A DNA stretch of 64,000 bases from a virus, in the IMG/VR virus record IMGVR_UViG_3300045988_052780, one strand, 5' to 3'. Shown in pieces: positions 10,302-56,659 of this stretch; position 1 is the first letter of the stretch, and each line of letters starts with the position of its first letter. The translations under genes were made by a program, and so were the position numbers. The notes beneath the pieces were generated by a model. It was not told the origin of the DNA and did no database searches. It worked only from the letters and a program-made list of their open reading frames with translations.

Positions 10302-10307
10302 TAAGAA

Positions 10308-26500: not shown

Positions 26501-28109
26501 TATTATATTACCTGCAATTAAGGGAATAAAGATGTCATTATTAGGATATGCTAAGTCTACGGATACAGATTTATCAGTCCTTAATGAGACTTTGGACAAC
26601 TATTTAAAGGTAGCAGTATTTAACCAATCTATTATTAGTGAAGAAGGCCGTCAAGCTTTTGAATATCTTAACCCTATTAAAAGACTAGCATCTTTTGGAC
26701 TACTTGCATTTAACGTTACTGGGGGTGTTCGTGATATGATTAATGGTATGTGGAAGCAGTCATCTCTAGCCTTTAGTAAAATGTACTATACTGATGAGAA
26801 GTTCACTAGAAAGGATTTGGCCCAAGCTATGGCATTAGTAACCAAAGAAGGGCCAGATATGCTTAGTAGGACTACTAAGATTGAGGCTATTAATAATATG
26901 ATTAGACTAGCTAATATAGATATGCAAGTTCTAAATAAACGGCTTATTAGTAACAAATCTGGATTAGCTAATATGTCTAGGCATGCTTATCAGTTAACTA
27001 CTGCCCCGGATTATTTCCATCGTATGACCATATTTGTAGCTCAATGCTTACATGATGGTACATGGGATGCATTAGAAATGACTGATGAGGGCATTAAATA
27101 TAATTGGAAGAAAGATAAGCGTCTAGCAGTATATGCTTCTGGTAATAAGAGTAATCCTGAATACAATAAGCAAAGAGGACTTTATTTATCTATAATGGAA
27201 GCCTATAATAGAGACAATGGATTAAATCTAAAAGAAGGAGATGATTTACCATTTGCCTATACTAAAGATGAAGTATTGGCTGCTAAAACCTTGTCAGATC
27301 TTATTTATGGACACTATGACCAGGAAAGTAGAGCTTTGGCTGAGAAGACATTTATGGGAGCATTATTCGGACAGTTTAAAACCTATTTATCTGCAACTAG
27401 AAATGCCTATTTACTTAAACCCAAGAATTATAATTTAGCTGGAAGAGTTCAAGCTAAGAATGACAATGGTGATTTATTATGGTATAAAGATGAGGTGGAC
27501 GAGAACGGTAATTCTATAGTAATAGTCACTACTGAGAACACTGGAGTTCCTGCTACTATTAATGAGGACAGATATCTAGAAGGTATTTATTATACTATTA
27601 AAGACTGCTTTAGGGCTTTACATGAAGGTGGATTCTCAGAATTTAGAGATAGTATCTGGAATGAAGAGACCGGTGTAAAGAAAGCAAATTTAAAGAGATT
27701 AGCTCATGATATGTTCTTATGGATGATACTTGGAACTATAGGTAAATACCTTATTGAACTATGGGGAGAGACTAGAGAGGAAGATAGAGATCCTTTAAAT
27801 CCTAACATGTCTCAAGCCATGAGAGATACTGTATTTAGCCTATTTGAAAGAGGTTACAACAGTTCATACGGAGATATAGCTCCCTGGAGTGTGTTGCTAG
27901 GACTTATTAAAAATTCAGAACCTGTATCTATAGGATACTTAAGTACATTCTTTAATAATACTTATGAGTTTGCATTTGGTGATAAATCTCTATCATCTTA
28001 TCTCACAGGAACTACTGGACTTGGTAGAACATTTAAAGGAATGACTACAGAACTTAATAATATGTCCAAACTTGCAGCAGATGCAATAGAGGAAGATACA
28101 GCACAGTAA
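23535..28109 (+). CDS. large protein (about 1524 aa); possible N-terminal RecB-like PD-(D/E)xK nuclease fold (weak)
   Basis: The ORF track start (23529) is a TTG. An ATG at 23535 overlaps the upstream stop as TAATG, 7 nt after AAGGAGG. Near residues 230-270 the pattern IDLVV ... YVFKSS ... QLAFY resembles RecB-family nuclease motifs II, III and QhxxY. Confidence 0.55.
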   Translation: MACTYSLNINGQIQQFNDYAELFDFLIGHKNQIEMGLISDIVFSQDTKQSEMVAKLRSIKATAKLNSNGVDPVSGDIVYKAEGSNMSVTDFLETATITKDSKETFLGQPFSIKNWRNNTINELVSKGMTHAEAEEQVNNIMEMWERIADTGAELHAVLGDYFAGHMSLEELIDKYAGVFSEQAVRSIYKNMASFKDEIYKAHGQDAKLLPQFTIDSKTLDGVNIIGSIDLVVIGEDGQPHLYVFKSSAKLSDRWDAAKQTKYDYQLAFYRQMLASKGIPAANMELNIVPMHLEGLEDGELTGVSFEGVQDRTKDSGGTINRLAWGVGEFYNNVSYAIPVRLTDETIGESIRDNVLDTLSKFIPNPKIKSIREQIDVDAFIANHVYDSPNPSEGRWYFKDFYSKGKPIYIKEDSPKEKNAELRVEVEKYLNKMVKNHRLKTNKFIYDLKRAIDGKIPLEDVSPTTGYTTNAFVVTTFQKYVNDPGWELVNIEALKQLGIVAISNTITKQIDFIALSHHDLHTELKLSLGTTMLGEHEKDAYALNNKMILLATNGNIELMKIMAAINEIPNALTDVFKIGDIKVINTEDSKATTATSRQIKETFNLLAKAAKVNNNINKLSFMDELDVIKNEFLALMNRPNGKLTNSLSRDIEALSKELFNINTVNKNEIANRLIALARRMENGERLGKIVGGSLESIANESSNTGIERLYKSILQAIAYYKGLDFLQPKEISRYTQKGTPLSGGMITNPDLFPEDNLRQITLAVRGAFDNVTREMTPYHEKFLTGYVKPLWKDKGYSNARNIVIGDQVKLYNNFFRRNSDGSLNNKMLFVDPYDSSTPLTSEERRFLKQALWLINQERFPNIRSLSEDSETVKQLKKTEKWFWVPLMEANNQILQMGISKWINQEVKDVTGRFKDYWNRSQNDAYSDREYSDKQKVITRYEMYNRFNLSEASEEARDALLAEYKPDFWERNIETLVTTYKFASARKEQLDIILPAIKGIKMSLLGYAKSTDTDLSVLNETLDNYLKVAVFNQSIISEEGRQAFEYLNPIKRLASFGLLAFNVTGGVRDMINGMWKQSSLAFSKMYYTDEKFTRKDLAQAMALVTKEGPDMLSRTTKIEAINNMIRLANIDMQVLNKRLISNKSGLANMSRHAYQLTTAPDYFHRMTIFVAQCLHDGTWDALEMTDEGIKYNWKKDKRLAVYASGNKSNPEYNKQRGLYLSIMEAYNRDNGLNLKEGDDLPFAYTKDEVLAAKTLSDLIYGHYDQESRALAEKTFMGALFGQFKTYLSATRNAYLLKPKNYNLAGRVQAKNDNGDLLWYKDEVDENGNSIVIVTTENTGVPATINEDRYLEGIYYTIKDCFRALHEGGFSEFRDSIWNEETGVKKANLKRLAHDMFLWMILGTIGKYLIELWGETREEDRDPLNPNMSQAMRDTVFSLFERGYNSSYGDIAPWSVLLGLIKNSEPVSIGYLSTFFNNTYEFAFGDKSLSSYLTGTTGLGRTFKGMTTELNNMSKLAADAIEEDTAQ

Positions 28110-28117
28110 TAAAAAAA

Positions 28118-28160
28118 ATGGCCTATACAAGTAGAGTTTAACTCCACCTGCATAGGCCAT
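28118..28160. terminator. bidirectional intrinsic terminator hairpin between the convergent gene blocks
   Basis: Inverted repeat ATGGCCTAT (28118-26) pairs with ATAGGCCAT (28152-60). It has an A8 run on one side and a T-rich tract on the other. It sits exactly between the plus-strand stop at 28109 and the minus-strand stop at 28166. Confidence 0.55.
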
Positions 28161-28165
28161 TATTA

Positions 28166-28813
28166 TTAAATATAGTCACCAAGGCATGCTTTGACTTTAT
28201 CAATCAATGCATCGATGGTACCATTATTCTTTATTACATAACTAAAATGCTCGTAATCATCTAGAGCATGTTCAGAAATATGCTGGTCATCTAAACCAGT
28301 ATCTCTTTCTACTTTAATTACTATTCCTCCATGAGAGATTATAGCATCAGCTTCGTTAGGAAACCTTACGTCAGTAATAATCCACTTAGAATCAGGGTTA
28401 GACTCATAGATTTGCATTAGATGCAAAACCCATAAATCTGGATGAATGTTTCTACCAATTTCAGTTCCTAGCTTTTGTAAGAACTCTCTATTGGTCATTC
28501 CAAGGTTTAAGGTAGTAGGAGATTCCTTAAAGTCTTCAGTTTCAAAGCAACACATGTCAACACCTAATATAAGAGAACTACATGCTTTTAATGCATCGGC
28601 AAAGGCATGCTTCTCCCACTCAGAGAATTTAATTAGATCGTCTCCATAATCACTAAACATATTGTTAAAATGTGCAGCGGAGGGCTCTAAACCTTTAAAG
28701 ATCTGGTTATACTTTAAGTAATTTAAGTATCTAATAATATTACAAATGGTGTCTTTACCACATTGTTTACGTCCAGCTATTCCGATTATCATTCTTCGAA
28801 GAGGGTTATACAA
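28166..28813 (-). CDS. P-loop nucleotide kinase, probably deoxynucleoside monophosphate kinase (T4 gp1-like)
   Basis: N-terminal GIAGRKQCGKDT P-loop resembles T4 Dnk GVKRSGKDT. The size (215 aa) fits. Confidence 0.55.
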   Translation of the reverse strand: MYNPLRRMIIGIAGRKQCGKDTICNIIRYLNYLKYNQIFKGLEPSAAHFNNMFSDYGDDLIKFSEWEKHAFADALKACSSLILGVDMCCFETEDFKESPTTLNLGMTNREFLQKLGTEIGRNIHPDLWVLHLMQIYESNPDSKWIITDVRFPNEADAIISHGGIVIKVERDTGLDDQHISEHALDDYEHFSYVIKNNGTIDALIDKVKACLGDYI

Positions 28814-28971
28814 TCATCACTATATTCACAATCTCTTACGTCTAAATCTCCGTAATCTACTGTGTCCATAGCTTTCTCCCAAGCTTCGTCTTTGCTGTCA
28901 GCTTCTACTTCCATGTCAAAATATAAACGACATCTAAGCTCTCTATCAATACTTACGTTATACCTCGGCAT
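28789..28971 (-). CDS. hypothetical small acidic protein
   Basis: Tiled minus-strand ORF with no motifs. Confidence 0.3.
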   Translation of the reverse strand: MPRYNVSIDRELRCRLYFDMEVEADSKDEAWEKAMDTVDYGDLDVRDCEYSDDCITLFEE

Positions 28972-29212
28972 CGCACATAGTAATAGTTACTAGCTCTCCA
29001 CTATCTATAGCTTTACGAATATATCTCATTAAAGTAATGGGTTTGGGATATTCTGCCACAAATGTAGCAGTCCCTACATCCTCTTTATCATTCATATCCA
29101 CCGGGAACATAATTCTCTGGTTCTCAGTTTCTATCTGATAATAAAGCACTCCAGCTATAGCATGTGTGAATCTGGCCGGATAAGGTAAAGTTACAATTTC
29201 TTTTAATGTCAT
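28958..29212 (-). CDS. hypothetical protein
   Basis: Tiled minus-strand ORF that overlaps its neighbours by a few nt. Confidence 0.35.
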   Translation of the reverse strand: MTLKEIVTLPYPARFTHAIAGVLYYQIETENQRIMFPVDMNDKEDVGTATFVAEYPKPITLMRYIRKAIDSGELVTITMCDAEV

Positions 29213-30144
29213 TAATTACATAAATTAGCTTTAACTAAGTCTGCAATCTTCTTCCCATCAGCAGCTGGATATTTAGCTTTCAATTCTTTGACAGCTATCC
29301 CCATCTGATTCTTAGGGATTTGTACTGGATGAATATCATGTTCTTCATTATCGTCATACCATCCTTTATCTAATGCAAGTTTAAGTAATGCAGCATTCAA
29401 TTCTTCTTTAGTAGGTTCTTTAGGAAGCAACTCCTCTAGTATCTCAGCCTCATCAGCCTCAACTGCCGATAAGTCCATACGCCCTGCTGTTTGATAGGTT
29501 TCTGCATTAGCCCATCTTTCATCCCTCATCTTCTTAATAATAGAGATTTCCGCAGCTTCATCCAAAGGTTTAGCATTCTTAGCCGCTGCATAATTAGTAA
29601 ATGCAGTCTTAATAGCTCTATACACATTAGTACGTGTAGTGTCATGCTTCTTCATAGAATCAGCAATCATTACATTCAATTTATCATTCCACATATCATT
29701 CCTATTTAAAATATTAATTATATGTCTAACATCCTCATCAGTAATGCCTATAACTGTATTAGTTTTTATAAAGTACTTCCTCTGATGAGATAGCATATCT
29801 CTATCGTCGTCTACTATAGCGTAGACATAAGGTTCTGTTTGAGAATCAAGCCATTCCTGTATTTCACAACCTCTATGGCTTCCGAACGGAGTAATACTAT
29901 GTATTTTGAATTTTAAACCAGCTTTGTCGAAGATTGATTGTAAGTTGGATTCAGTTCTCCAGGAAGAACTTACAACTACCTTACAACCAGTCTCTTCAAC
30001 TATTCTGTTTACAAGTTCAACACATTTTGGATCAAAGTCTCCTTGAGGATATACATGGTTTTTATTCCATTCCTCCCGATACCATGAAACACTATTAAGT
30101 ACTCCATCTACGTCCAAGAATAAATATTTATTAATTCCTCTCAT
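29212..30144 (-). CDS. HAD-superfamily phosphatase domain protein with an unknown C-terminal domain
   Basis: N-terminal motif I LFLDVDGVL (DxDG[VT]) is present, with an SSSW motif II-like segment. This resembles the HAD phosphatase domains of RNA-repair enzymes. Confidence 0.65.
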   Translation of the reverse strand: MRGINKYLFLDVDGVLNSVSWYREEWNKNHVYPQGDFDPKCVELVNRIVEETGCKVVVSSSWRTESNLQSIFDKAGLKFKIHSITPFGSHRGCEIQEWLDSQTEPYVYAIVDDDRDMLSHQRKYFIKTNTVIGITDEDVRHIINILNRNDMWNDKLNVMIADSMKKHDTTRTNVYRAIKTAFTNYAAAKNAKPLDEAAEISIIKKMRDERWANAETYQTAGRMDLSAVEADEAEILEELLPKEPTKEELNAALLKLALDKGWYDDNEEHDIHPVQIPKNQMGIAVKELKAKYPAADGKKIADLVKANLCN

Positions 30145-30187
30145 AAAATGTTACTTCTCAATAAGTTCAACTTCTAGTTTATAAGTT

Positions 30188-30709
30188 CTAATTAGAACTC
30201 ATATTGTGTCTACGGAGAATGTTCTCAGCTGTACCAGATTTCCATTTAGACTTACCTCTTAAGAATGCTATATCCACATCAGAGAAGGTTGTCATTGCTG
30301 AGTCTCTATCAGTATCACATTCGTAGCCTCCGACATAATGTACTTGAGGACAATCCTCTAGTGTTACCAGATCGGATTCATCTTCTACACCTTCATTGAA
30401 GCGTTCTCTAACGTCTATATAATAGTTGCCATCGTCAGCCTTAGTTCCAACTCTAAATCTAGGCTCAGAGAACATGTGATGAATGGTAAGTGTACAAGGA
30501 ACACAGTCCCACTCATCCATATTCTCTTCAATATACTTTGCTATATATTCAGCTGCCATTTGATCGCAGCCCTTACAATCACCAACTATGAATTCACAAT
30601 CTTCCCAAGTGGTTTGTCCATTATCTATAGCATCTTCTATAGCTGGTGCATAGTTAGCATCAAACTCTTCTTGAGTTAAGTCTCGGTGTCCACTAATAAA
30701 GTATATCAT
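30188..30709 (-). CDS. hypothetical protein, possibly SLOG/YpsA-like nucleotide-binding fold (weak)
   Basis: ISGHRD ... IVGDCKGCDQMAAEYI loosely resembles the YpsA/DUF1273 N-terminal pattern. Assignment is tentative. Confidence 0.35.
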   Translation of the reverse strand: MIYFISGHRDLTQEEFDANYAPAIEDAIDNGQTTWEDCEFIVGDCKGCDQMAAEYIAKYIEENMDEWDCVPCTLTIHHMFSEPRFRVGTKADDGNYYIDVRERFNEGVEDESDLVTLEDCPQVHYVGGYECDTDRDSAMTTFSDVDIAFLRGKSKWKSGTAENILRRHNMSSN

Positions 30710-31263
30710 TCCGCAAATAAATTGTCTAAGTCTTCTATTTCTTCATAATCTACATAAGTATGAAAGATGCCTTCAATAAGATGTTTGTGATTAAATGCCC
30801 ACTGATAGTTGTCAAGGTCAGACATTTTAACCCACATGATAGCTTTTACTTCATTCTCCTCTCCACCTAGCTGTCCCTTAATAGCATTAGTAGAAATACC
30901 AATATGACTCTCGTCTACTACAGCCATGAATCTCATGGTAACATTCTGTCTATTGGAATCTTTCGGGTCATCATTAATACTACACATGTAAAGAGCACTA
31001 GGTTCAACCTTAGCTCCAGTTTCCTCATAAATTTCCCTAGAGCAGGCCTCTGCTAATGTTTCATCGAAGTCCAAATAACCACAAGGACAGTTCCAATATC
31101 CTTGAAAGTCTGGTGCTCCTTCACCTCTTTGATTAGCAAGAACACACCATTCATTGTTAATCTTGCAGAATACAAACCCTACAACAGCAATACTACGATG
31201 AACCCAAACTGTTTCTCCAGCATGTTCACCTGTTTCAATTTTAATTGGATAATTCTTCATCAA
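30706..31263 (-). CDS. Nudix hydrolase
   Basis: Nudix box GYWNCPCGYLDFDETLAEACSREIYEETG matches Gx5Ex7REUxEExGU. Confidence 0.8.
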   Translation of the reverse strand: MMKNYPIKIETGEHAGETVWVHRSIAVVGFVFCKINNEWCVLANQRGEGAPDFQGYWNCPCGYLDFDETLAEACSREIYEETGAKVEPSALYMCSINDDPKDSNRQNVTMRFMAVVDESHIGISTNAIKGQLGGEENEVKAIMWVKMSDLDNYQWAFNHKHLIEGIFHTYVDYEEIEDLDNLFAE

Positions 31264-31718
31264 TAAGTATCATTAAAATTAATAAATTCTTTATCTGTAA
31301 CACATTCTTCTGAGACATTAGAACTAATCAAATTGGACTTCATTAGTTTGAATATGCTATTTCTTGCGTTAGCTATGCCACCAACAGTTATAACCCCACT
31401 AGTTAAATTCAAAGATCCAGGATATATACACATATCACTACTGCCCTTTGGACCATAAGCTATAAAGTAGGGTTTATTGCTATTTATGACTTTAATTAAT
31501 TCGCTTAAGATTCCATTAGTAAGTCTATGCAAAGGAGTACTAAAACTTACATCTGGAAGTATAAATATCACAATATCAGATGTATCCAAATATTCTGGAT
31601 GATAATCATCATGAAATTTGTTATATTTAATGCTAACGTTATAGTCTTTAAATACATCTGTGACTTTACTAAGAACTGTAGGCATATTGTATGGATAAGA
31701 TATATAAATATTATACAT
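31260..31718 (-). CDS. hypothetical protein; possibly nucleoside 2-deoxyribosyltransferase-like or flavodoxin-like fold (speculative)
   Basis: No clear motif. It sits between the Nudix gene and nadD. Confidence 0.4.
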   Translation of the reverse strand: MYNIYISYPYNMPTVLSKVTDVFKDYNVSIKYNKFHDDYHPEYLDTSDIVIFILPDVSFSTPLHRLTNGILSELIKVINSNKPYFIAYGPKGSSDMCIYPGSLNLTSGVITVGGIANARNSIFKLMKSNLISSNVSEECVTDKEFINFNDTY

Positions 31719-32289
31719 ATAGTTTATATTGCTTAATTATTTCATACACGTCGTCTCTAACAAAGGGTTTTATCCCAACCCCATCCTTAACTCTATTTCT
31801 AATGCAAGTAGAACACATTCTGATAGTTGGAACATATACTAGTGATACGTTATCTGGTAAGCCATACGGAGGTTCTTCTCCGTTAATTACCATAATAAAC
31901 TTGTAATCTTTAAGTATTGTAGATCCGTTATGCCAGTTTGGTATTTCTCTATAGGTTTCAGGAGTAGTAATTATTACCAATTCCTTGTCTGTTATTCTGG
32001 ATGATAGTTCCATCAATACATCATAGGTTGGAATGCCCTTATCATAGTCAGGATTCATCATTGACTTCTCTATGTCACTTACAAAGACATTAGGAAGGCT
32101 GTCGAATGCCATACAACACATAGCATACCTGTATGGGAATCTGGTACTACGCCCCTTCCATATATTCTGATATGCAGGAATTACTAATACTTTATCTACT
32201 AGTTTAGAATTAACAACTCCCATTACTACATTGGCATGTCCAATGTGAGGAGGATCGAATGAGCCAAAGAATAAACCTACTCTATTCAT
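31711..32289 (-). CDS. nadD: nicotinate/nicotinamide mononucleotide adenylyltransferase
   Basis: N-terminal GSFDPPHIGH matches the (H/T)xGH nucleotidyltransferase signature of NadD. Length is 192 aa. Confidence 0.85.
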   Translation of the reverse strand: MNRVGLFFGSFDPPHIGHANVVMGVVNSKLVDKVLVIPAYQNIWKGRSTRFPYRYAMCCMAFDSLPNVFVSDIEKSMMNPDYDKGIPTYDVLMELSSRITDKELVIITTPETYREIPNWHNGSTILKDYKFIMVINGEEPPYGLPDNVSLVYVPTIRMCSTCIRNRVKDGVGIKPFVRDDVYEIIKQYKLYV

Positions 32290-33271
32290 ATAACTTTCTA
32301 GATATATAAATTGGTGCTTTCTTACGTTTAAATTCAGAAGCTAAATGACGGCCCCAAACCTTATTGACTACATCTTCTCCATGTCTAGCACATAACTGTG
32401 ACCAGCAATCAGATTCTGCCATTTCATCATGTGGGTGCATGATTTGTCCAGCTGAATCATAGCTTTTTCTAAAGTCCTCGAATGGAATGAATCTACTAAG
32501 TATATCATCCACAGTAGCGTAGTCCTTAGCACCTATCTGGTCTAAGTCACTATTACTAATACCAAGACCATCAGTGGGAACTAGCTTGCAAGAATTATAT
32601 ATAGCACATGACATTGCTTTATAATTATCGCAAGTTTCTTTATAATCATTACGAAGAGCTTCTAGAGCTTTACTTTTATAATGGTCTTGCAAATAGTTTG
32701 CCAGTCCGTAAACTTCAGTCTTCCACAGGTCTTGAATCGGGTCAAAGTCACCCACATCACCATGAATAGTCCAGAACCCAAGCTGATATTCAGTTTGATT
32801 ATCTGTACTCATTACCAATCCTTTATGACGACTAGCTATATCATATAGATACATCATTCTGCACCTAGCTTGAAGATTACCATTAGCAATAGGAGTCCTA
32901 CTGGGCATTTCTTCTAGCTCATCGAGATAGTAAGAATTAGCTATATTGACATCACCTGCATCAGCACATGCGTCAAAGAGAGCTGCACGATAGGAACGTT
33001 CGGGCCTATAAACTGAGAAGTCATCACAGAAAGCTTCTCCAACTAACTTAGACACATCAAACTCGTCACTCTTATTCTTAATAGGAAGACTTCTACCTAT
33101 AAGTGGAATGCCAGTTTGTTTACTTACTTCATGACAAATGGCAGCAACAACAGTGGAGTCAATTCCTCCACTGATGCCTAATACCATTGCCTTGAGATTA
33201 TTAACTTTCACATAGTTTGCAGTCTCCTTTACTAGGACTTCAAACACTTTACTATAATCCAAGTTATTCAT
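32282..33271 (-). CDS. nadE: NAD+ synthetase (PP-loop ATP pyrophosphatase)
   Basis: The SGGxDS PP-loop appears as MVLGISGGIDSTVVAAI, which aligns to E. coli NadE LVLGISGGQDST. Confidence 0.85.
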   Translation of the reverse strand: MNNLDYSKVFEVLVKETANYVKVNNLKAMVLGISGGIDSTVVAAICHEVSKQTGIPLIGRSLPIKNKSDEFDVSKLVGEAFCDDFSVYRPERSYRAALFDACADAGDVNIANSYYLDELEEMPSRTPIANGNLQARCRMMYLYDIASRHKGLVMSTDNQTEYQLGFWTIHGDVGDFDPIQDLWKTEVYGLANYLQDHYKSKALEALRNDYKETCDNYKAMSCAIYNSCKLVPTDGLGISNSDLDQIGAKDYATVDDILSRFIPFEDFRKSYDSAGQIMHPHDEMAESDCWSQLCARHGEDVVNKVWGRHLASEFKRKKAPIYISRKLYE

Positions 33272-33453
33272 TTCAATTCACGTTTAAATGTGTATATAAG
33301 TCTTGAAATCTTAGTAGAAATAGAAATGTCTACACGTTTAGAATATTCATGAGATACCATTCCTACTAATTCCCAGCCTAAAGACCCTAGAGCGTCTAAT
33401 TCACTCTCTGATACTGGATAGACTCTTTCTAACATTTTATATTCAAACTTCAT
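33268..33453 (-). CDS. hypothetical small protein
   Basis: Tiled ORF between nadE and pncB. Confidence 0.3.
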   Translation of the reverse strand: MKFEYKMLERVYPVSESELDALGSLGWELVGMVSHEYSKRVDISISTKISRLIYTFKRELK

Positions 33454-33584
33454 ATTAACTGTGTTTATAAAACAGATAGTTATATTGAGCTTCGGTCATT
33501 TTAACAGCAGCACAGAGAATCCATCCCTGTGCTCCCAGCTCATTTAATTCTTCCACGCTCATTACTGAACCATATACAGTCTTT

Positions 33585-34763
33585 CTAAGGTACTCTATAT
33601 GCATATCCCAAATCAGTTAAACACCTTTGAACATCCTCAATCTTACCGGTGTGTTTACCGGCATCATCTGATAATTTAACACAACCAAATATTGGTTGGT
33701 TAGAATTCATTTGGCAGCTAGTAAGTTTCATTACAATGTTAGCTGGCTTAAAACCAGTATCGTTAGTAAGATTAGTACCAATACCAAATGAACATCTAAT
33801 CCTACCTCTACAGTATTCCATAATATCTTGACATTTGTCAAAATCTAGGGCATTACTAAAGACAATGGTCTTAGTCGTGGGATCAACACCAAGTTCTTTA
33901 TAACGACTAATCATATCGTTTATAAACTTGTATTCATCCCCAGAATCACATCGTACTCCGTCAAACAGTTTAGCTTGCTTACGAGACAGATTCTTCATAA
34001 ACGTATACGAGGTATATGTATCAGACAATGCTATACCTAGATCGCCATCATACACATTTACCCAGTTCTCAAGAGCCATATAGTTAGCCTGCCTATAACC
34101 ATACATAGCACCATGGAACATGAACCATTCATGTGGGTGAGTTCCCATCATAGGCATATCATACTTCATTGCTAAATGGCAATTAGAAGTACCAGTACAA
34201 TAAATAGATCCTTCCTTGATTGTAGATACTACTATGTCTTGCACATTATAACTAAATCGTCTTCTAGTACCAAATTCAGAGAATTTAATCCCGGCAACAT
34301 TAGAAAGCTTAATTTTAGGTGATAGCCTCTTAATAACGTCAGCCAAATCACAGTTGTTATCAAATATTCTGCTGCGCAATTCTGATACTATTGCAAGAAT
34401 AGGTACTTCATATAAAGTAACCTTATAAAGATAGTCAGTTACTTTAATGTGTAAGTGGCCGTTTTCATCTAAGGATGCTTGTATTTTGCCAGAATTGAAT
34501 TTAAATGAAGATAGCCATTCCCAATAGACTGGAGGAATGAATCTACAATTATTATTCATATATTCTTGTTCATCCTTAGCAAGATGTAACATTCCTAGGG
34601 AACCAAGCTCCAAGTATAGTCTCTCTATGAAGTCTTCTGGATACTCAGTATTATCACGATCAATAAATTCAAAAGTTCCTCTAGCTTGAGGAAATAATTT
34701 CATATAAGCATACGAAGTTGTAAACTTATATAAATCTGTATCTAATATAGATTTAATTATCAT
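33585..34763 (-). CDS. pncB: nicotinate phosphoribosyltransferase
   Basis: Several blocks match E. coli PncB. ILDTDLYKF aligns to LLDTDAYKL. FGTRRRFS and GTSN are shared. GIALSD aligns to GIALTD. RCDSGD aligns to RHDSGD. SFGIGT is shared. KLSDDAGK aligns to KLSDSPGK. Confidence 0.9.
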   Translation of the reverse strand: MIIKSILDTDLYKFTTSYAYMKLFPQARGTFEFIDRDNTEYPEDFIERLYLELGSLGMLHLAKDEQEYMNNNCRFIPPVYWEWLSSFKFNSGKIQASLDENGHLHIKVTDYLYKVTLYEVPILAIVSELRSRIFDNNCDLADVIKRLSPKIKLSNVAGIKFSEFGTRRRFSYNVQDIVVSTIKEGSIYCTGTSNCHLAMKYDMPMMGTHPHEWFMFHGAMYGYRQANYMALENWVNVYDGDLGIALSDTYTSYTFMKNLSRKQAKLFDGVRCDSGDEYKFINDMISRYKELGVDPTTKTIVFSNALDFDKCQDIMEYCRGRIRCSFGIGTNLTNDTGFKPANIVMKLTSCQMNSNQPIFGCVKLSDDAGKHTGKIEDVQRCLTDLGYAYRVP

Positions 34764-35055
34764 CTCGTTTAAACATTTCTATAATTCTACACACTACTGA
34801 ATCGATAGTTTGTAATGATTCTATTATTCTACTATCTCTATATTCCTTAGACCAGGTACTATACTCTTTATGGTTAGTTATTCTCTGCACTATAGAGCCT
34901 ATTACTAGAATAGCATTGACATAAGGAATCAAGCCTACTATGCCCGTAAACACTACTACTTTAGTAGTAAGATAAGGCCTAGTAACTTCATTAGAATAAA
35001 CACTAGCAATTACACATACAAACACCAGTACTGAAATAGCATAAATTAATCCCAT
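34753..35055 (-). CDS. small membrane protein (2 predicted TM helices)
   Basis: Hydrophobic segments VLVFVCVIASV and GIVGLIPYVNAILVIGSIV. Confidence 0.4.
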   Translation of the reverse strand: MGLIYAISVLVFVCVIASVYSNEVTRPYLTTKVVVFTGIVGLIPYVNAILVIGSIVQRITNHKEYSTWSKEYRDSRIIESLQTIDSVVCRIIEMFKRDDN

Positions 35056-35624
35056 TTTAAGTTATATTCTTTAATTAGTTCAACTAGTTTATCTCCTCCG
35101 TCTATAGAGGCTATATACTTAGTATCTACTATTATGTTGTCTGCATACCCCATAGCTATTAAACTACAAATGGTTTCATACACACAATAATCACCAGCTA
35201 TACCGACTACTCGAATTTCGTTATCTGGGTCAGATTCAAAATCAAGTAATATGTCTGATATAACAGAAAGACTTTCTAGATTATCAAAGATACTATATTC
35301 TTCTTTGTCAGTACTATCTCCTTTAATAAAGATGTCTGTATCCTTACGATAAGCATAGTTGTTTATTACACTCCACAGTGGAGCATACACACAACTACCA
35401 GCAGTACCTTTAACACAATGTGGAGGCCATTGACCTCCGTTCTCTTTAAAGGAGCAGTGATTAGATGGGTGAAAGTCCTTAGTAATCATTACATAGTCAC
35501 AGTCAATTTCACCGTTCTGTAATGCACTAGCAAGAGCATCCATCTTCTCTTTAGCTCCTTCTACAGCTAAGGACCCACTGATAAAATCTACCTGTGGGTC
35601 TACAATTAATAAGATCTTGTCCAT
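35046..35624 (-). CDS. pncA: nicotinamidase (isochorismatase family)
   Basis: Several blocks match E. coli PncA. LLIVDPQVDF aligns to LLLVDLQNDF. DFHPSNHCSF aligns to DWHPANHGSF. WPPHCV aligns to WPDHCV. GIAGDYCV aligns to GLATDYCV. Confidence 0.9.
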   Translation of the reverse strand: MDKILLIVDPQVDFISGSLAVEGAKEKMDALASALQNGEIDCDYVMITKDFHPSNHCSFKENGGQWPPHCVKGTAGSCVYAPLWSVINNYAYRKDTDIFIKGDSTDKEEYSIFDNLESLSVISDILLDFESDPDNEIRVVGIAGDYCVYETICSLIAMGYADNIIVDTKYIASIDGGDKLVELIKEYNLKWD

Positions 35625-35625
35625 T

Positions 35626-35859
35626 CTACTTACTATATGCTGCTATAGCAGCCCCAATTACTATAATTATTAGAGCAATTATTAAAATTCCGAATACAAG
35701 GGCAACTGGTATCCATAATGGAGCCAGCACCCACCACCAAGACCAAGTAGCTACAGCAGAAACTCCTAATAGCTTAAGAGTTATAAATACAATTGCTAAA
35801 AGTGTACACAAACTGGGTCCTCTATATATTACTTCAGGAGTGTTAACTGTATACTTCAT
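35626..35859 (-). CDS. small membrane protein
   Basis: 77 aa, almost entirely hydrophobic, with two TM helices. Confidence 0.4.
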   Translation of the reverse strand: MKYTVNTPEVIYRGPSLCTLLAIVFITLKLLGVSAVATWSWWWVLAPLWIPVALVFGILIIALIIIVIGAAIAAYSK

Positions 35860-35860
35860 T

Positions 35861-36580
35861 TTAGATATTTAAGTATAAGGGTTCATAATGAATATTATAA
35901 TCTTCTCCCACTAAGCTTACATTGGCTAAATGAATACCTGTAATTTCCTGTAATTCATGATTACCACTGTGAATGTGTCCACAAAAGCAATAATCTGGTT
36001 GCTTACGCATTATTTCGTCTGCTAGCCAAGGATTGCCTGCATCTTTACCTGCCCATGCTCCAGTATGTATCTCTCCTAAACCTAACATCTTAGGGGCATC
36101 ATGAGAAAGTAGAATATTGCAATCTATAGGAATATCGGAATATCTATCCTGTAATGTCTCCGATTCTCGCATAAATGCCCAATTACCGAAGATCTTACAG
36201 TATGGAGTTCCAAAGATTCTAAGTTTAACAAAGACTCCAGGCTTTACTTCGTAATCATAATCCCACATTTTATGATGGAGATATACTAGCTTACCATCCG
36301 TAGGTTTATTAAATGTTTCATATATTTCAGGTTCCATACCTCCATTTCTTTCAAACCAGAAGTCATGATTACCTGCTATAAATATAACATGTTTACACGG
36401 AAGATTGTTAGCCCACGGAATAAACTCAGTCTTTAACCATTCTAGAGAAGCAGGCATATTTAACTGAACAGACAGTGGCATTATATCTCCACATATGAAG
36501 AATAACTCACAGGGTTCTATTTCTGGAAGTATTCCATGTAAATCAGATGTTGCTCCTATTCGCATTTCTCGGCTGTACAT
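35861..36580 (-). CDS. calcineurin-like metallophosphoesterase
   Basis: Motifs SDLHG, GDIM, GNHDFW and GHIH are present in canonical order. Confidence 0.75.
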   Translation of the reverse strand: MYSREMRIGATSDLHGILPEIEPCELFFICGDIMPLSVQLNMPASLEWLKTEFIPWANNLPCKHVIFIAGNHDFWFERNGGMEPEIYETFNKPTDGKLVYLHHKMWDYDYEVKPGVFVKLRIFGTPYCKIFGNWAFMRESETLQDRYSDIPIDCNILLSHDAPKMLGLGEIHTGAWAGKDAGNPWLADEIMRKQPDYCFCGHIHSGNHELQEITGIHLANVSLVGEDYNIHYEPLYLNI

Positions 36581-36798
36581 TTAATCCGTATTTCAACCAT
36601 CTCTCCATCGTCAATGTTAGGAAGTGATTCCATAAAGTCTATACCGTAGACATCCTCAATCTCCGTTTCTGGTATCCACTCATAATCCTCTGGTTCCTCA
36701 TCAGAGTTATTCCATATATCTTCATACTTAACTGGAGCTACTGACCCTTTATAAAGCCATTTATCTCCGATGTCGTCTATACAATACCAAAACCTCAT
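36556..36798 (-). CDS. hypothetical small acidic protein (WYCxD family, paralog 1)
   Basis: Begins MRFWYCIDD and ends GEMVEIRIKC. Similar to the adjacent ORF. Confidence 0.4.
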   Translation of the reverse strand: MRFWYCIDDIGDKWLYKGSVAPVKYEDIWNNSDEEPEDYEWIPETEIEDVYGIDFMESLPNIDDGEMVEIRIKCTAEKCE

Positions 36799-36800
36799 AG

Positions 36801-37049
36801 TTACTTCATTTTAAGTTCACATACAAGTTCTATCTCCATACATTCCCCTTTATTCAGTTCAGGGAAAGCAACTGTTCCGAACAACTTATTAAGGCTGTCA
36901 TTAAAGTCTTCTTCCGACCAAAATATACCATCGTCGTCTGATTCCTCCCACTTTCCATCATTCATAGTTGGAGGATTGTATCCAACATATAAATATACAT
37001 AATCAGCAAGACTTCCTTTTAAGTCTCTACAATACCATGCTCGTTTCAT
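36801..37049 (-). CDS. hypothetical small acidic protein (WYCxD family, paralog 2)
   Basis: Begins MKRAWYCRD and ends GECMEIELVC. Tandem paralog of 36556..36798. Confidence 0.4.
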   Translation of the reverse strand: MKRAWYCRDLKGSLADYVYLYVGYNPPTMNDGKWEESDDDGIFWSEEDFNDSLNKLFGTVAFPELNKGECMEIELVCELKMK

Positions 37050-37309
37050 TCTTTATACCAAGTCGTATTTAACTGTTCGTCAATCTCAAACTGTAATGGG
37101 CCCTTATCAGGCGTAGTGGTTGGAATAAAACAATCTCTAAACACATCGTCTGTAGCCGAGGTCCAAAGAAATTTGTTATCATTTCCACGCCAGCTGCCAC
37201 CCCTTGTTGCTGTAGGCGCATCGCCATCTGTAACATATAAGTCTCCTTCCTGTACAGCTACTACCCACCATTTACCTACTGGACTAGTTATGGGGATTCT
37301 CATGTCCAA
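37046..37309 (-). CDS. hypothetical protein
   Basis: Tiled ORF. Confidence 0.35.
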   Translation of the reverse strand: MDMRIPITSPVGKWWVVAVQEGDLYVTDGDAPTATRGGSWRGNDNKFLWTSATDDVFRDCFIPTTTPDKGPLQFEIDEQLNTTWYKE

Positions 37310-37565
37310 ATTCAGATATATCTTTTAAGTAGTCAAACATTTCATCTTCATCTTTAGTAAGCTCTAAAAGTGGAATTATTGATATGGATATACCAGGTCT
37401 ATATACATAATACCACTTGTTATCAACACCAACCCAAGTAGCTAAGTCCGATGTACGCATATAAGGCTTACCTTGAGCTTCTAGTTCTCTTCTAATGCCT
37501 GGATTTGGACACGAAGGACCAAGTTCTATCTCTATACTGTGTCCATGAATTACTTTAACCGACAT
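37284..37565 (-). CDS. hypothetical protein
   Basis: Tiled ORF. Confidence 0.35.
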   Translation of the reverse strand: MSVKVIHGHSIEIELGPSCPNPGIRRELEAQGKPYMRTSDLATWVGVDNKWYYVYRPGISISIIPLLELTKDEDEMFDYLKDISEFGHENPHN

Positions 37566-40432: not shown

Positions 40433-40851
40433 TAATAAAATGTTACTTCTTTAGAACCAAATTCATCTAATTCTTTAATTGTTTCATCTTGTACTATATC
40501 ATCTATAGGTTCTGGAGCATTTCTAGACCATATAGACTGTAGGTATTTGGGGTCTTTAAGATACCAAAGTCCACAAGGAGCAGTGTGGGGAAATTCCTTC
40601 CTCTTCTCCTCAACATCAGTATAAACCCTTTTATATACTTCCATTATGTCCCATTCTGAGTTGGTACTACCTTTCACAGTCATATCTGGAGCATAACTAG
40701 AAATATCCATATAACCATTATCAGCTGCAAATATGGTGGTAACTTTATCAACAATCTTATCACAAAAGATCCTAACGTCAGTAAGTACTACATACAGTCC
40801 ACCATTCCTTAGCTTAACAACCATTGTATTCTCTAGATCATTCAGAGTCAT
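40432..40851 (-). CDS. hypothetical protein
   Basis: Tiled ORF. Confidence 0.4.
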   Translation of the reverse strand: MTLNDLENTMVVKLRNGGLYVVLTDVRIFCDKIVDKVTTIFAADNGYMDISSYAPDMTVKGSTNSEWDIMEVYKRVYTDVEEKRKEFPHTAPCGLWYLKDPKYLQSIWSRNAPEPIDDIVQDETIKELDEFGSKEVTFY

Positions 40852-41323
40852 CGTCCCAATTCAAATAAGGATTAGATGCAAGGTTATAGTTATAATACCT
40901 TGTATCTTCTGTGACTTCGTCTCCAACAAAATCAGGCAATTCTGGATTCAAAGTTGCCTGAGTTAATTCACACTCAGCAATTGTCAATCCTTCATTGTCT
41001 CCCAAGAACTCATCAATTTCCCATTTGTTACCTTTATGGTAAACTATATAACGTACTTTACGTATAACGTTCGGGCAAAGTTTTAACAATTCTAATGCCT
41101 CATACTTTGGAATTTCCTGCCGCCATTCAAACCTACTAAGAGTTCCCTTAGCTTTTATAAATAGCCAGCCTTTATTCTCCCTAATAGCTATTCTAGTCTC
41201 AGATAGAGGATTATCTCCAAGATATCCTTGAATTATTAATCCTGCTTTCTGAGCCTGTACTTTATAGCTATTATTCTTTACTAAATACTTTCTTTCAATT
41301 TCTGTCATAATTAATGTACCCAA
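40838..41323 (-). CDS. CYTH-domain (triphosphate tunnel metalloenzyme) protein
   Basis: N-terminal ExExK motif (EIERKYLV) is followed by a beta-rich region typical of CyaB/ThTPase-like proteins. Confidence 0.7.
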   Translation of the reverse strand: MGTLIMTEIERKYLVKNNSYKVQAQKAGLIIQGYLGDNPLSETRIAIRENKGWLFIKAKGTLSRFEWRQEIPKYEALELLKLCPNVIRKVRYIVYHKGNKWEIDEFLGDNEGLTIAECELTQATLNPELPDFVGDEVTEDTRYYNYNLASNPYLNWDDDSE

Positions 41324-45050: not shown

Positions 45051-45425
45051 CTAGTAATGCCATTTGTCATAATATAAAGAGAACCTGTATAATCTGTTTG
45101 CAGCCTCAACTGGAGTATGACCATCCCATTCATCAGCTTTCCATCTTTCAGGAACATTGAACAGGTTCCATTCTTCCGCCCTATAATGATTGCTCACTTG
45201 ACCCGTAGGAAGGTTAGCCATAACAATAAACCATCCTCCTCCAAAGCATAGTTCTCCATCTGCATGTCTGTAGGATTTATGGACTTCATATTTACCTTCC
45301 AAGCTGTTAAAGAATGCTGCATTGTACAGCATTCTGTAGTGATATAACTCATCAAAGGTATGAAATCCGTCTGAAACCTCACCTTCAGGTAGGAACAAGT
45401 TCTTTAGTCTTTGTAATAGTCTCAT
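45051..45425 (-). CDS. hypothetical protein
   Basis: Tiled ORF. Confidence 0.4.
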   Translation of the reverse strand: MRLLQRLKNLFLPEGEVSDGFHTFDELYHYRMLYNAAFFNSLEGKYEVHKSYRHADGELCFGGGWFIVMANLPTGQVSNHYRAEEWNLFNVPERWKADEWDGHTPVEAANRLYRFSLYYDKWHY

Positions 45426-47540: not shown

Positions 47541-47559
47541 ATGACTGTATTAACCCTTC

Positions 47560-56651: not shown

Positions 56652-56659
56652 GTGGAGGG

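What the first reader, a model, noticed from the sequence alone, without database searches (positions are those of the whole stretch)
31260..35624. Contiguous four-gene Preiss-Handler NAD+ salvage operon (pncA-pncB-nadE-nadD) in a phage replication module
The four enzymes needed to rebuild NAD+ from nicotinamide are encoded back to back on the minus strand. These are nicotinamidase PncA, nicotinate phosphoribosyltransferase PncB, NaMN adenylyltransferase NadD and NAD synthetase NadE. Each has textbook catalytic motifs, and PncB and PncA align block by block with the E. coli enzymes. Phage NAD+-reconstitution pathways are known anti-defence tools against NAD+-depleting immunity such as Thoeris, DSR, SIR2 and SEFIR systems. 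The described phage versions use ADPR-PP/Namat or NadV/NMNAT chemistry. A complete deamidated-route (Preiss-Handler) module would be a distinct third solution. It would start from free nicotinamide, which is exactly the product released by NADase effectors.
Basis: partly seen in the sequence, partly recalled or inferred. Interest (0 to 1): 0.85.

Follow-up and report, generated by a model that had tools for sequence, protein, structure and literature searches.

The report
Nicotinamide-to-NAD+ salvage genes in crAss-like phage
A gut crAss-like phage carries all four enzymes that rebuild NAD+ from nicotinamide by the deamidated route; the set is real and conserved across a phage clade, but similar clusters are already annotated in other large phages and no one has tested whether it defeats NAD+-depleting bacterial immunity.

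Summary
On the minus strand of 31711-35624 lie a nicotinamidase (PncA-like), PncB, an NH3-type NadE and a NadD-family adenylyltransferase. Catalytic residues are intact and invariant in 28 distinct orthologues. Three corrections apply. Two small ORFs and a 131-bp gap interrupt the run. The 3' end of the stated range (31260-31718) is a fifth gene with a nucleoside-deoxyribosyltransferase/TIR-like fold. The conserved unit is larger than four genes: metallophosphoesterase, PncA, PncB, NadE, NadD, NDT-like protein, Nudix, SLOG-fold protein. This order recurs in nearly all of 38 IMG/VR contigs (64-190 kb).

The phage is crAss-like (Crassvirales). Its PncB is 64-69% identical to Bacteroides/Phocaeicola PncB, and pncB stands alone in those chromosomes, so the cluster was assembled in the phage.

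The anti-defence reading is plausible but untested. The novelty claim is overstated. NARP3 (PnuC-NadR) is already the third validated pathway. pncB-nadD-nadE clusters have been annotated in gut jumbo phages of Bacteroidota, and a 735-kb phage also holds PncA, PncB and NadE close together. Near-identical relatives carry independent deletions inside the block, which marks it as accessory.

Verdict: a new variant of a known kind, directly testable. Interest 0.5.

The parts
35046..35624 (-). PncA-like nicotinamidase (192 aa), step 1: nicotinamide -> nicotinate + NH3
   Evidence: Pfam Isochorismatase 33.2 bits. NCBIfam PncA 66.8 bits, below cut-off. Best PDB matches are nicotinamidases: yeast Pnc1 2h0r, Leishmania 3r2j, M. 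tuberculosis PncA 3pl1, P. horikoshii 1ilw. In those alignments D9/K101/C147 sit at the catalytic triad and D50/H52/H69 at the metal site. All six are invariant in 28 distinct orthologues that are otherwise 30-40% identical.
34753..35055 (-). 100-aa hydrophobic small ORF between pncA and pncB; lineage-specific, function unknown
   Evidence: No family hit. Overlaps both neighbours by about 10 nt. Found only in the closest relatives L001-L003 and L036.
33585..34763 (-). PncB nicotinate phosphoribosyltransferase (392 aa), step 2: nicotinate + PRPP -> NaMN
   Evidence: NCBIfam PRK05321 444 bits and TIGR01514 413 bits, both above cut-off; Pfam NAPRTase plus NAPRTase_N. The G207-T-H-P-H211-E-W motif is invariant. 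It is 64-69% identical to Bacteroides, Phocaeicola and Parabacteroides PncB.
33268..33453 (-). 61-aa DUF4177-like small ORF; a 33-aa remnant of similar sequence lies in the 131-bp gap upstream (33454-33584)
   Evidence: Pfam DUF4177 E 6e-4, below cut-off. The remnant was read from the sequence. Present in only a subset of relatives.
32282..33271 (-). NadE, NH3-type NAD+ synthetase (329 aa), step 4: NaAD + NH3 + ATP -> NAD+
   Evidence: TIGR00552 120.7 bits (cut-off 63.65); Pfam NAD_synthase 116.5 bits. PDB NH3-dependent NAD synthetases match at E 8e-21. The PP-loop S34-G-G-I-D-S39 and the C-terminal P232-T-D-G...S241-D...G247 signature are invariant. The 329-aa protein is too short to hold a glutaminase domain, and none was detected.
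31711..32289 (-). NadD-family nicotinate-mononucleotide adenylyltransferase (192 aa), step 3: NaMN + ATP -> NaAD
   Evidence: Most NCBIfam hits, and all of the strong ones, are NadD models (91.1 and 84.6 bits, below equivalog cut-offs). PDB NadD matches reach E 2e-12 over the full length. G9-x-F-D-P-x-H15-x-G-H18 is invariant. NaMN versus NMN preference was not testable.
31260..31718 (-). 152-aa protein with a nucleoside 2-deoxyribosyltransferase/TIR-like fold; conserved between nadD and the Nudix gene; function unknown
30706..31263 (-). Nudix hydrolase (185 aa), conserved downstream partner; a candidate ADP-ribose or NAD(H) pyrophosphatase
   Evidence: Pfam NUDIX 48.4 bits. The best NCBIfam hit is the Nudix half of the bifunctional NMN adenylyltransferase/Nudix enzyme, and the NtrR model also hits. 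PDB matches include NudJ, 3gz8/3gz5 (which I recall as NrtR) and NadM-Nudix 2qjt. The Nudix box G62..E68..R76-E77..E80-E81-x-G83 and P100 are invariant. The substrate is not established.
30188..30709 (-). SLOG-fold protein (173 aa), YpsA-like; conserved last member of the block; function unknown
35861..36580 (-). Metallophosphoesterase (239 aa), conserved upstream neighbour of pncA
   Evidence: Pfam Metallophos. PDB MPPED2 E 1e-8. PADLOC candidate PDC-S10 114.5 bits. Found upstream of PncA in all 38 loci and in L001. Its link to NAD metabolism is not shown.
28117..28161 (-). Strong intrinsic-terminator-like hairpin at the end of the minus-strand arm; no comparable site inside the NAD block
   Evidence: 20-bp stem followed by a T-run. 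The GC-skew sign changes at about 28 kb. Start/stop overlaps of 4-11 nt link pncA, the 100-aa ORF and pncB, and then link the 61-aa ORF through the SLOG gene.

Best explanation
The block encodes a complete, phage-borne deamidated salvage route from nicotinamide to NAD+. PncA deamidates nicotinamide to nicotinate and releases NH3. PncB condenses nicotinate with host PRPP to give NaMN. NadD adenylates NaMN to NaAD. The NH3-type NadE amidates NaAD to NAD+. The genes sit in one tightly packed run with overlapping starts and stops, at the distal end of the replication and nucleotide-metabolism arm of a crAss-like phage, most probably of Bacteroides or Phocaeicola. The run continues into a Nudix hydrolase, an NDT/TIR-like protein and a SLOG-fold protein. 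The host already has NadD and NadE, which are universal, and relatives of the likely host have PncB. The phage therefore does not fill a pathway gap. It adds infection-timed flux through every step, so NAD+ can be rebuilt quickly from the nicotinamide released when NAD+ is cleaved. The most likely selective reason is to offset NAD+ depletion during infection, in particular by SIR2-, TIR- or SEFIR-type NADase defences. Shown here: gene identities, intact active sites, conservation, phage-specific clustering and accessory status. Inferred: enzyme activities, flux, co-transcription and the anti-defence role. Speculative: that the Nudix enzyme converts ADP-ribose to AMP plus ribose-5-phosphate to feed PRPP synthesis, and that the PncA-released NH3 feeds NadE.
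For: Catalytic residues of all four enzymes and the Nudix box are invariant over 22-28 distinct orthologues, although PncA and NadD diverge to 30-45% identity, which indicates purifying selection on activity. The order MPE-PncA-PncB-NadE-NadD-NDT-like-Nudix-SLOG is kept in nearly all of 38 IMG/VR contigs. Gene overlaps of 4-11 nt and the absence of an internal terminator fit one transcription unit. The phage is crAss-like: its PolA is 40-47% identical to crAss001, IAS virus and cr111_1 of the Steigviridae. PncB is 64-69% identical to Bacteroidaceae PncB, yet none of PncA, NadE or NadD lies within 6 kb of pncB in those genomes, so the cluster was built in the phage. No NAD+-dependent enzyme was found in the window; the ligase is ATP-type and the giant ORFs carry no NAD-using Pfam domain, so supplying a phage NAD+ consumer is not an obvious reason. 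The neighbourhood is rich in repair and counter-defence-type genes: PNK, RNA ligase, a CCA-adding-like enzyme, HAD_SAK_2+YqeY and CYTH. Independent deletions inside the block in near-identical genomes mark it as conditionally useful accessory cargo, as anti-defence genes typically are. There is precedent for phage NAD+ rebuilding that defeats NADase defences: NARP1 and NARP2 (bioRxiv 10.1101/2024.02.11.579819) and NARP3 (PMC13464706).
Against: There is no experimental or expression evidence. PncA and NadD score below NCBIfam equivalog cut-offs, so substrate specificity is inferred, including NaMN versus NMN for NadD. The four-step route costs more ATP than the NadV route (PMC9316036), which is odd for an emergency pathway. 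Removing nicotinamide could also relieve product inhibition of NADases (my own knowledge). Any rebuilt NAD+ remains a substrate for an active NADase. No NADase defence of the unknown host has been linked to this phage. Frequent deletions could equally mean the block is a dispensable metabolic luxury.
Confidence: 0.6

Rival explanations
1. The block is a general auxiliary metabolic module. It raises the NAD(P) pool from gut-derived or turnover-derived nicotinamide to sustain a large replication burst, for example NADPH for ThyX and redox metabolism. Bacterial immunity plays no specific part.
For: This is the reading given for jumbo-phage NAD clusters (PMC11662467). Phage PA5oct up-regulates the host pncA-pncB1-nadE operon during an ordinary infection, which suggests a general NAD demand (PMC7318152). 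The block lies among nucleotide-metabolism genes: ThyX, dUTPase, NrdD and dNMP kinase. Deletion variants show it is dispensable.
Against: Relatives of the likely host already encode PncB, and NadD and NadE are universal, so duplicating every step suggests a need for acute flux rather than capacity. No phage NAD+ consumer was found. Linkage to Nudix, SLOG and NDT/TIR-like proteins, whose folds are typical of NAD/ADPR conflict systems, fits a conflict role better. The two readings are not mutually exclusive.
Confidence: 0.3
2. The genes do not act as one NAD+ pathway. The isochorismatase-family and HIGH-nucleotidyltransferase proteins, together with the NDT-like, SLOG and Nudix proteins, act on other nucleotides or amides, for example in nucleotide-pool remodelling or base modification.
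For: PncA and NadD fall below curated cut-offs. NDT-like and SLOG folds include nucleotide N-glycosidases unrelated to NAD. The block sits in a nucleotide-metabolism arm.
Against: PncB and NadE pass curated equivalog thresholds, and NadE has no known role other than NaAD amidation. The nicotinamidase-specific metal ligands D50/H52/H69 and the catalytic triad are invariant. The four functions form exactly one known pathway and co-occur in nearly all of 38 contigs.
Confidence: 0.07
3. The cluster is bacterial DNA in the window through mis-assembly or contamination, and is not phage-encoded.
For: PncB is 64-69% identical to Bacteroidaceae PncB.
Against: The block is embedded between phage genes on both sides. 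Composition and strand skew are uniform across it. It recurs with the same flanks in 38 viral contigs and in GenBank MT835470. Bacterial pncB loci lack the other genes.
Confidence: 0.01

Closest known systems
Preiss-Handler 'biosynthetic gene clusters' (pncB-nadD-nadE) annotated in gut jumbo phages, e.g. Kuafu_71 (Li et al. 2024, PMC11662467)
   Same: Both are phage-encoded deamidated-route genes clustered together, in gut phages with predicted Bacteroidota hosts. Both are bioinformatic predictions only, and both are proposed to raise NAD+ in the infected cell.
   Different: This phage is crAss-like, with clade contigs of 64-190 kb rather than a jumbo phage over 200 kb. pncA is part of the cluster here, so the route starts from nicotinamide and not from nicotinate. 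The block also extends to conserved Nudix, NDT-like and SLOG-fold genes. Whether the Kuafu clade is related could not be checked because no supplements are held.
NARP2 (NadV/Nampt + NMN adenylyltransferase, e.g. Vibrio phage KVP40), validated anti-defence NAD+ reconstitution
   Same: Both start from nicotinamide and PRPP and use classical salvage chemistry. A Nudix activity is associated in both: NatV has a Nudix-like module, and here a separate Nudix gene follows.
   Different: NARP2 is a two-step amidated route through NMN. Here the route has four deamidated steps through nicotinate, NaMN and NaAD, with PncB in place of NadV and with NadE required. NARP2 is validated experimentally and this block is not.
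NARP1 (Adps + Namat), its phosphatase-extended form, and NARP3 (PnuC + NadR)
   Same: All are phage operons that rebuild NAD+. The extended NARP1 shows that such operons recruit accessory enzymes that process ADPR-type products.
   Different: The block holds no Prs-like Adps, no NadV-like Namat, no PnuC, no NadR and no Macro phosphatase. The chemistry and the precursors differ.
Bacterial nicotinamide salvage pathway I (PncA, PncB, NadD, NadE), e.g. the P. aeruginosa pncA-pncB1-nadE operon
   Same: The enzyme families and reaction order are the same, and PncB is clearly derived from Bacteroidaceae.
   Different: In the closest bacterial genomes pncB is solitary. Here all four steps are fused into one phage block. 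NadE is the short NH3 type, and PncA and NadD are highly divergent.
NAD-related clusters in other huge phages: the 735-kb LR756501 and Agrobacterium phage Atu_ph07
   Same: LR756501 has PncB, a NadE-like gene and a PncA-like gene within about 8 kb. Atu_ph07 has a PncA-like ORF, an annotated ADP-ribose pyrophosphatase and PncB within about 6 kb.
   Different: These are different phage lineages with only 29-44% PncB identity. The genes are scattered, no NadD lies alongside, and nothing is conserved as a compact block.

Membership tests
Deamidated nicotinamide salvage (PncA + Preiss-Handler PncB/NadD/NadE) | Nicotinamidase: isochorismatase fold with an Asp-Lys-Cys triad and an Asp/His/His metal site | tested here: met
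   D9/K101/C147 and D50/H52/H69 align with solved nicotinamidases and are invariant in 28 orthologues. The whole-protein score is below the NCBIfam PncA cut-off.
Deamidated nicotinamide salvage (PncA + Preiss-Handler PncB/NadD/NadE) | PncB-type nicotinate phosphoribosyltransferase, not NadV/Nampt | tested here: met
   PRK05321 444 bits (cut-off 379) and TIGR01514 413 bits (cut-off 269.55). The match to the NadV-like PHROG 448 is weak, E 5.5e-12.
Deamidated nicotinamide salvage (PncA + Preiss-Handler PncB/NadD/NadE) | NadD-type NaMN adenylyltransferase with the (H/T)xGH motif | tested here: inconclusive
   The motif G9xFDPxHxGH18 is present and invariant, and the best hits are all NadD. Scores are below equivalog cut-offs, and NaMN versus NMN preference cannot be read from sequence.
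Deamidated nicotinamide salvage (PncA + Preiss-Handler PncB/NadD/NadE) | NAD+ synthetase with an SGGxDS PP-loop | tested here: met
   TIGR00552 120.7 bits (cut-off 63.65); S34GGIDS39 is invariant.
Deamidated nicotinamide salvage (PncA + Preiss-Handler PncB/NadD/NadE) | Measured conversion of nicotinamide to NAD+ | not testable with these tools
   Requires enzyme assays or isotope tracing.
Phage NAD+ reconstitution pathways that defeat NADase defence (NARP1/2/3 as a functional class) | Restores NAD+ and rescues phage replication in cells with an NAD+-depleting defence system | not testable with these tools
   This is the defining functional criterion in Osterman et al. and in the NARP3 paper. 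There are no data for this block.
NARP1 | Prs-like ADPR-PP synthetase (Adps) plus Nampt-like Namat | tested here: not met
   No Prs-like or NadV-like protein was found in the block or its flanks.
NARP2 | NadV/Nampt plus an NMN adenylyltransferase (NadM/NatV type) | tested here: not met
   The phosphoribosyltransferase is PncB. The adenylyltransferase is of NadD type; NadM and NadR models score at E of 1e-3 or worse.
NARP3 | PnuC transporter plus NadR-like kinase/adenylyltransferase | tested here: not met
   No PnuC or NadR hit. The small hydrophobic ORFs of 77 and 100 aa; the 100-aa ORF matched no family, and the 77-aa ORF was not scanned.
'NAD-jumbo phage' Preiss-Handler cluster (Li et al. 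2024) | pncB, nadD and nadE clustered on a phage genome | tested here: met
'NAD-jumbo phage' Preiss-Handler cluster (Li et al. 2024) | Genome larger than 200 kb | tested here: not met
   Related contigs are 64-190 kb. The closest GenBank record is 117 kb, and the lineage is crAss-like.
Crassvirales (crAss-like phages) | Replication proteins related to those of crAss phages, a two-arm genome and giant ORFs in the virion arm | tested here: met
   PolA is 40-47% identical to Steigviridae members over the full length. ORFs of 2927 and 2257 aa lie on the plus arm. The strand switch is at about 28 kb. Capsid and terminase were not examined, so family-level placement is open.

The most novel reading that the evidence does not exclude
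The conserved block is a fourth, deamidated-route phage NAD+ reconstitution system. Four enzymes rebuild NAD+ from the nicotinamide half of cleaved NAD+. The linked Nudix, NDT/TIR-like and SLOG-fold proteins, and perhaps the upstream metallophosphoesterase, process or sequester the ADP-ribose half or ADPR-derived immune signals such as cADPR isomers. Together they would form an integrated counter-defence island against SIR2, TIR and Thoeris-type immunity in Bacteroidaceae, carried by a clade of the most abundant order of human-gut phages.
Probability: 0.25. Interest if true: 0.75.

Novelty: new variant of a known kind. Interest (0 to 1): 0.5.

Why it matters
Depletion of NAD+ is a common end-point of bacterial antiviral immunity. 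Three phage pathways that rebuild NAD+ have been validated, and all use amidated or ADPR-based chemistry. This block would add the classical four-step deamidated route, starting from the nicotinamide that NADases release. It would do so in crAss-like phages of Bacteroidaceae, a dominant and poorly understood part of the human gut virome in which almost no counter-defence functions are known.

The block is small at 4-6 kb. It is conserved, and it exists in nature both intact and as deletion variants, so it can be tested directly by heterologous expression.

The three conserved partner genes have folds typical of NAD/ADPR conflict systems (NDT/TIR-like, Nudix, SLOG) and belong to families with no Pfam model. 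They may reveal how the ADP-ribose half of cleaved NAD+, or ADPR-derived signals, are handled.

If the block only boosts metabolism, it is still a clear case of a phage assembling a whole cofactor pathway from separately acquired genes.

Tried and rejected
- Scanning bacterial genomes with the single PncB sequence found nothing. A second scan with an alignment worked.
- A literature search for 'crAss' plus 'nicotinamide' returned Neurospora and Crassostrea papers because terms match at word starts. No paper was found that links crAss-like phages to pncA, pncB or nadE. Part of the literature is outside the library, so this is absence in the searched set only.
- Iyer et al. 2022 (PMC9503650) covers only NadV, NadM and NadR in phages.
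- Rfam found no riboswitch or other RNA in 27500-37500, and ARAGORN found no tRNAs in the window.
- The sigma-70 promoter scan gave no more sites than shuffled sequence, and crAss and Bacteroides promoters are not modelled, so it says nothing.
- Profiles of the 152-aa and 173-aa families matched nothing meaningful among PDB sequences. Only fold comparison placed them.
- The afdb50 fold library was unavailable, and no supplements of Li et al. are held.
- The idea that the phage needs NAD+ for its own ligase was rejected: the ligase is ATP-type.
- Contamination or mis-assembly was rejected.
- Wholesale capture of a host operon was rejected: host pncB is solitary.
- A transporter role for the 77-aa and 100-aa hydrophobic ORFs was considered. 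They are small and not conserved beyond the closest relatives; the 100-aa ORF matched no family.

Full report
**What is in the sequence.** The window has two arms. Plus-strand genes run to about 28.1 kb and minus-strand genes fill the rest, with the GC-skew sign changing at that point. A strong terminator-like hairpin lies at 28117-28161 on the minus strand, where the arms meet.

In transcription order the minus strand of 28-37 kb encodes:
- a metallophosphoesterase (35861-36580)
- a 77-aa hydrophobic ORF
- a 192-aa isochorismatase-family protein (35046-35624)
- a 100-aa hydrophobic ORF (34753-35055)
- a 392-aa protein (33585-34763), followed by a 131-bp gap
- a 61-aa ORF (33268-33453)
- a 329-aa protein (32282-33271)
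- a 192-aa protein (31711-32289)
- a 152-aa protein (31260-31718)
- a 185-aa Nudix protein (30706-31263)
- a 173-aa protein (30188-30709)
- a HAD_SAK_2+YqeY fusion (29212-30144), an 84-aa ORF, a 60-aa ORF and a dNMP kinase

Start and stop codons of neighbouring genes overlap by 4-11 nt from pncA to pncB, and again from the 61-aa ORF through the 173-aa gene.

**Checking the four enzymes.**
- PncB is unambiguous. NCBIfam PRK05321 gives 444 bits (cut-off 379) and TIGR01514 gives 413 bits (cut-off 269.55). Both Pfam NAPRTase domains are present.
- NadE passes TIGR00552 at 120.7 bits (cut-off 63.65). It aligns with solved NH3-dependent NAD+ synthetases, and at 329 aa it has no room for a glutaminase domain.
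- The PncA-like protein passes only the general isochorismatase model and falls below the PncA equivalog cut-off. Every strong PDB match is nonetheless a nicotinamidase. In those alignments D9, K101 and C147 sit at the catalytic triad and D50, H52 and H69 at the metal site.
- The NadD-like protein also falls below the equivalog cut-offs, but its best matches are all NadD. It carries GSFDPPHIGH.
- I extracted 22-28 distinct orthologues from related contigs. All of these residues, the NadE SGGIDS loop and the PncB GTHPHEW motif are invariant, even though PncA and NadD have diverged to 30-45% identity.

The run is interrupted by two small ORFs and a gap. The last 459 bases of the stated range are a fifth, different gene. 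Only PncB and NadE are textbook members.

**What carries it.** The replication arm holds a family-A DNA polymerase, a Dda-like helicase, an ATP-dependent DNA ligase, ThyX, dUTPase, a split NrdD with NrdG, PNK, an RNA ligase and a CCA-adding-like enzyme. The polymerase is 40-47% identical over its full length to those of crAss001, IAS virus and cr111_1, which belong to Crassvirales, Steigviridae. It is 92% identical to an unannotated 117-kb human-faecal phage record, MT835470. ORFs of 2927 and 2257 aa on the other arm fit a crAss-like phage.

**Conservation.** A scan of IMG/VR with PncB returned 38 loci on contigs of 64-190 kb. tblastn with the window proteins shows the same order in nearly all of them, at identities from 25% to 99%. 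The order is metallophosphoesterase, PncA, PncB, NadE, NadD, 152-aa protein, Nudix, 173-aa protein, HAD protein. The conserved unit is thus larger than four genes.

The block is also plastic:
- Among the closest relatives (about 88-99% DNA identity across the aligned segments), L002 lacks window 30160-33025, which covers most of NadE through the 173-aa gene.
- L036 lacks 32348-34170, which covers half of PncB through NadE.
- L003 lacks 31309-31811.
- MT835470 lacks the 152-aa gene.
- The protein database holds many chimeric products, such as the NAPRTase N-domain or the NAD-synthase domain fused to the 152-aa or 173-aa sequences. These are what such deletions would produce.
- Other subclades carry extra genes inside the block: an AAA ATPase, an ABC/SMC-like ATPase, and a protein of about 190 aa with SGGAxGSD and GGTGWAVQMA motifs between NadE and NadD.

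**Origin.** The closest bacterial PncB proteins are from Bacteroides, Phocaeicola and Parabacteroides, at 64-69% identity. This fits the hosts of crAss-like phages. In those genomes no PncA, NadE or NadD lies within 6 kb of pncB. The phage assembled the pathway and did not capture an operon.

**The partner genes.**
- Neither family has a Pfam model or a sequence-level PDB relative.
- The Nudix protein has an invariant Nudix box. Its best curated hits are the Nudix half of NadM-type enzymes and NtrR, which are ADPR-related, but its substrate is not established.
- I regard these three as functionally linked to the NAD genes because of conserved position and translational coupling. What they do is unknown.

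**Mechanism.** The best-supported reading is a complete deamidated route: nicotinamide to nicotinate (PncA), to NaMN (PncB, using host PRPP), to NaAD (NadD), to NAD+ (NadE, using NH3).

Every host has NadD and NadE, and relatives of the likely host have PncB. The phage copies therefore add flux at every step and do not fill a gap. That fits rapid rebuilding of a collapsing NAD+ pool. No phage NAD+ consumer was found; the ligase is ATP-type and the giant ORFs have no NAD-using domains.

Three things favour a counter-defence role: the surrounding repair and conflict-type genes, the NAD/ADPR-type folds of the partner genes, and the accessory, deletion-prone nature of the block. None of them proves it.

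The main rival is a general NAD+ boost for replication. It is supported by the jumbo-phage literature and by PA5oct inducing the host pncA-pncB1-nadE operon in an ordinary infection. The four-step route is also costly in ATP.

**Comparison with what is known.** Validated phage pathways are NARP1 (Adps+Namat), NARP2 (NadV+NMNAT), NARP3 (PnuC+NadR) and a phosphatase-extended NARP1. This block meets the defining gene content of none of them.

The deamidated route in phages is not new as an annotation:
- Li et al. 2024 describe pncB-nadD-nadE clusters in gut jumbo phages predicted to infect Bacteroidota, and mention phage pncA.
- Xanthomonas phage X1 is reported with pncB, nadD and nadE and the same anti-depletion idea.
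- I found PncA-like, PncB and NadE-like genes within 8 kb in the 735-kb phage LR756501, and a PncA-like ORF, an ADPR pyrophosphatase and PncB within 6 kb in Atu_ph07.

Complete sets remain rare. Among 50,697 phage records, PncB occurs in 16, NadE in 39 and a PncA-like protein in 8. All three occur together only in this lineage and in the 735-kb phage.

**Verdict.** The feature is real, conserved and assembled in the phage. What is new is the lineage (crAss-like, under 200 kb), the compact four-step set that includes pncA, and the conserved Nudix, NDT-like and SLOG partners. This is a new variant of a known kind. The anti-defence function is the more likely of two live readings and can be tested directly. 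Interest 0.5.

Noticed in passing
It belongs to a family of 178 proteins with no Pfam model, has a nucleoside-deoxyribosyltransferase/TIR-like fold and a conserved Glu (E73), and is conserved between nadD and the Nudix gene.
   Followed up: yes
window 30188-30709 (-): A 173-aa SLOG-fold protein is the conserved last gene of the block. Its nearest folds are YpsA, and more distantly the ThsA SLOG domain and TRPM2. It has no sequence-level relatives in the PDB, and its ligand or activity is unknown.
   Followed up: yes
L002, L003, L036, L001 versus window 30160-34170: Near-identical phage genomes carry independent deletions of 0.5-2.9 kb inside the NAD block. The protein database holds matching chimeric products, such as the NAPRTase N-domain fused to the 152-aa protein. 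The block is a deletion hot spot and is dispensable in some populations. An assembly artefact was not excluded.
   Followed up: partly
L007 8282-8884, L022 8653-9213, L001 6903-8006 (-), L014 7155-7847: Other subclades have extra genes inserted within the block. One is a protein of about 190-200 aa with SGGAxGSD and GGTGWAVQMA motifs, which looks SLOG- or NDT-like (Pfam Nuc_deoxyrib_tr at E 0.07 only). The others are an AAA ATPase and an ABC/SMC-like ATPase.
   Followed up: partly
window 35861-36580 (-) and 30706-31263 (-): The conserved upstream metallophosphoesterase is MPPED2-like and matches PADLOC defence candidate PDC-S10 at 114.5 bits. The Nudix protein matches candidate PDC-S07. Families listed as candidate defence genes are therefore carried by phages here.
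   Followed up: no
window 55811-60496 (-): The anaerobic ribonucleotide reductase gene nrdD is split. The ATP-cone and N-terminal part is at 59369-60496, an HNH endonuclease ORF at 58478-59224, the C-terminal part at 57679-58488, a GIY-YIG endonuclease at 56758-57540 and an NrdG-like activase at 55811-56443. This looks like homing-endonuclease or intron invasion.
   Followed up: no
window 29212-30144, 40838-41323, 45051-49632 (-): The same arm holds an RNA-repair-type gene set: a HAD_SAK_2+YqeY fusion, a CYTH protein, a WDGH-domain protein, polynucleotide kinase, a CCA-adding/poly(A)-polymerase head-domain protein and an RNA ligase. Together these suggest countering tRNA-cleaving defences.
   Followed up: no
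window 33454-33584 (-): The 131-bp gap after pncB holds a 33-aa reading frame (VEELNELGAQGWILCAAVKMTEAQYNYLFYKHS) that resembles the neighbouring 61-aa DUF4177-like ORF. It is probably a decayed tandem duplicate.
   Followed up: no
L085 (ONIZ01000001.1, 410-kb scaffold binned as 'uncultured Firmicutes bacterium RUG343'): This is the only entry in the bacterial genome set with PncA-like, PncB (53% identity) and NadE-like genes near one another. A 410-kb rumen scaffold could be a mis-binned megaphage.
   Followed up: no
MT835544.1 12567-13827 (35-kb human faecal phage record): A PncA-like ORF lies directly beside a NadE-like ORF in a different, smaller gut phage contig. Parts of the deamidated route may therefore occur in other gut phage lineages.
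   Followed up: no
window 1518-17081 (+): Two giant ORFs of 2927 and 2257 aa have almost no Pfam signal; only an SF1-helicase-like P-loop region in the first. This is typical of crAss-like virion-arm proteins. A 1526-aa ORF at 23529-28109 has a PD-(D/E)XK nuclease domain.
   Followed up: no
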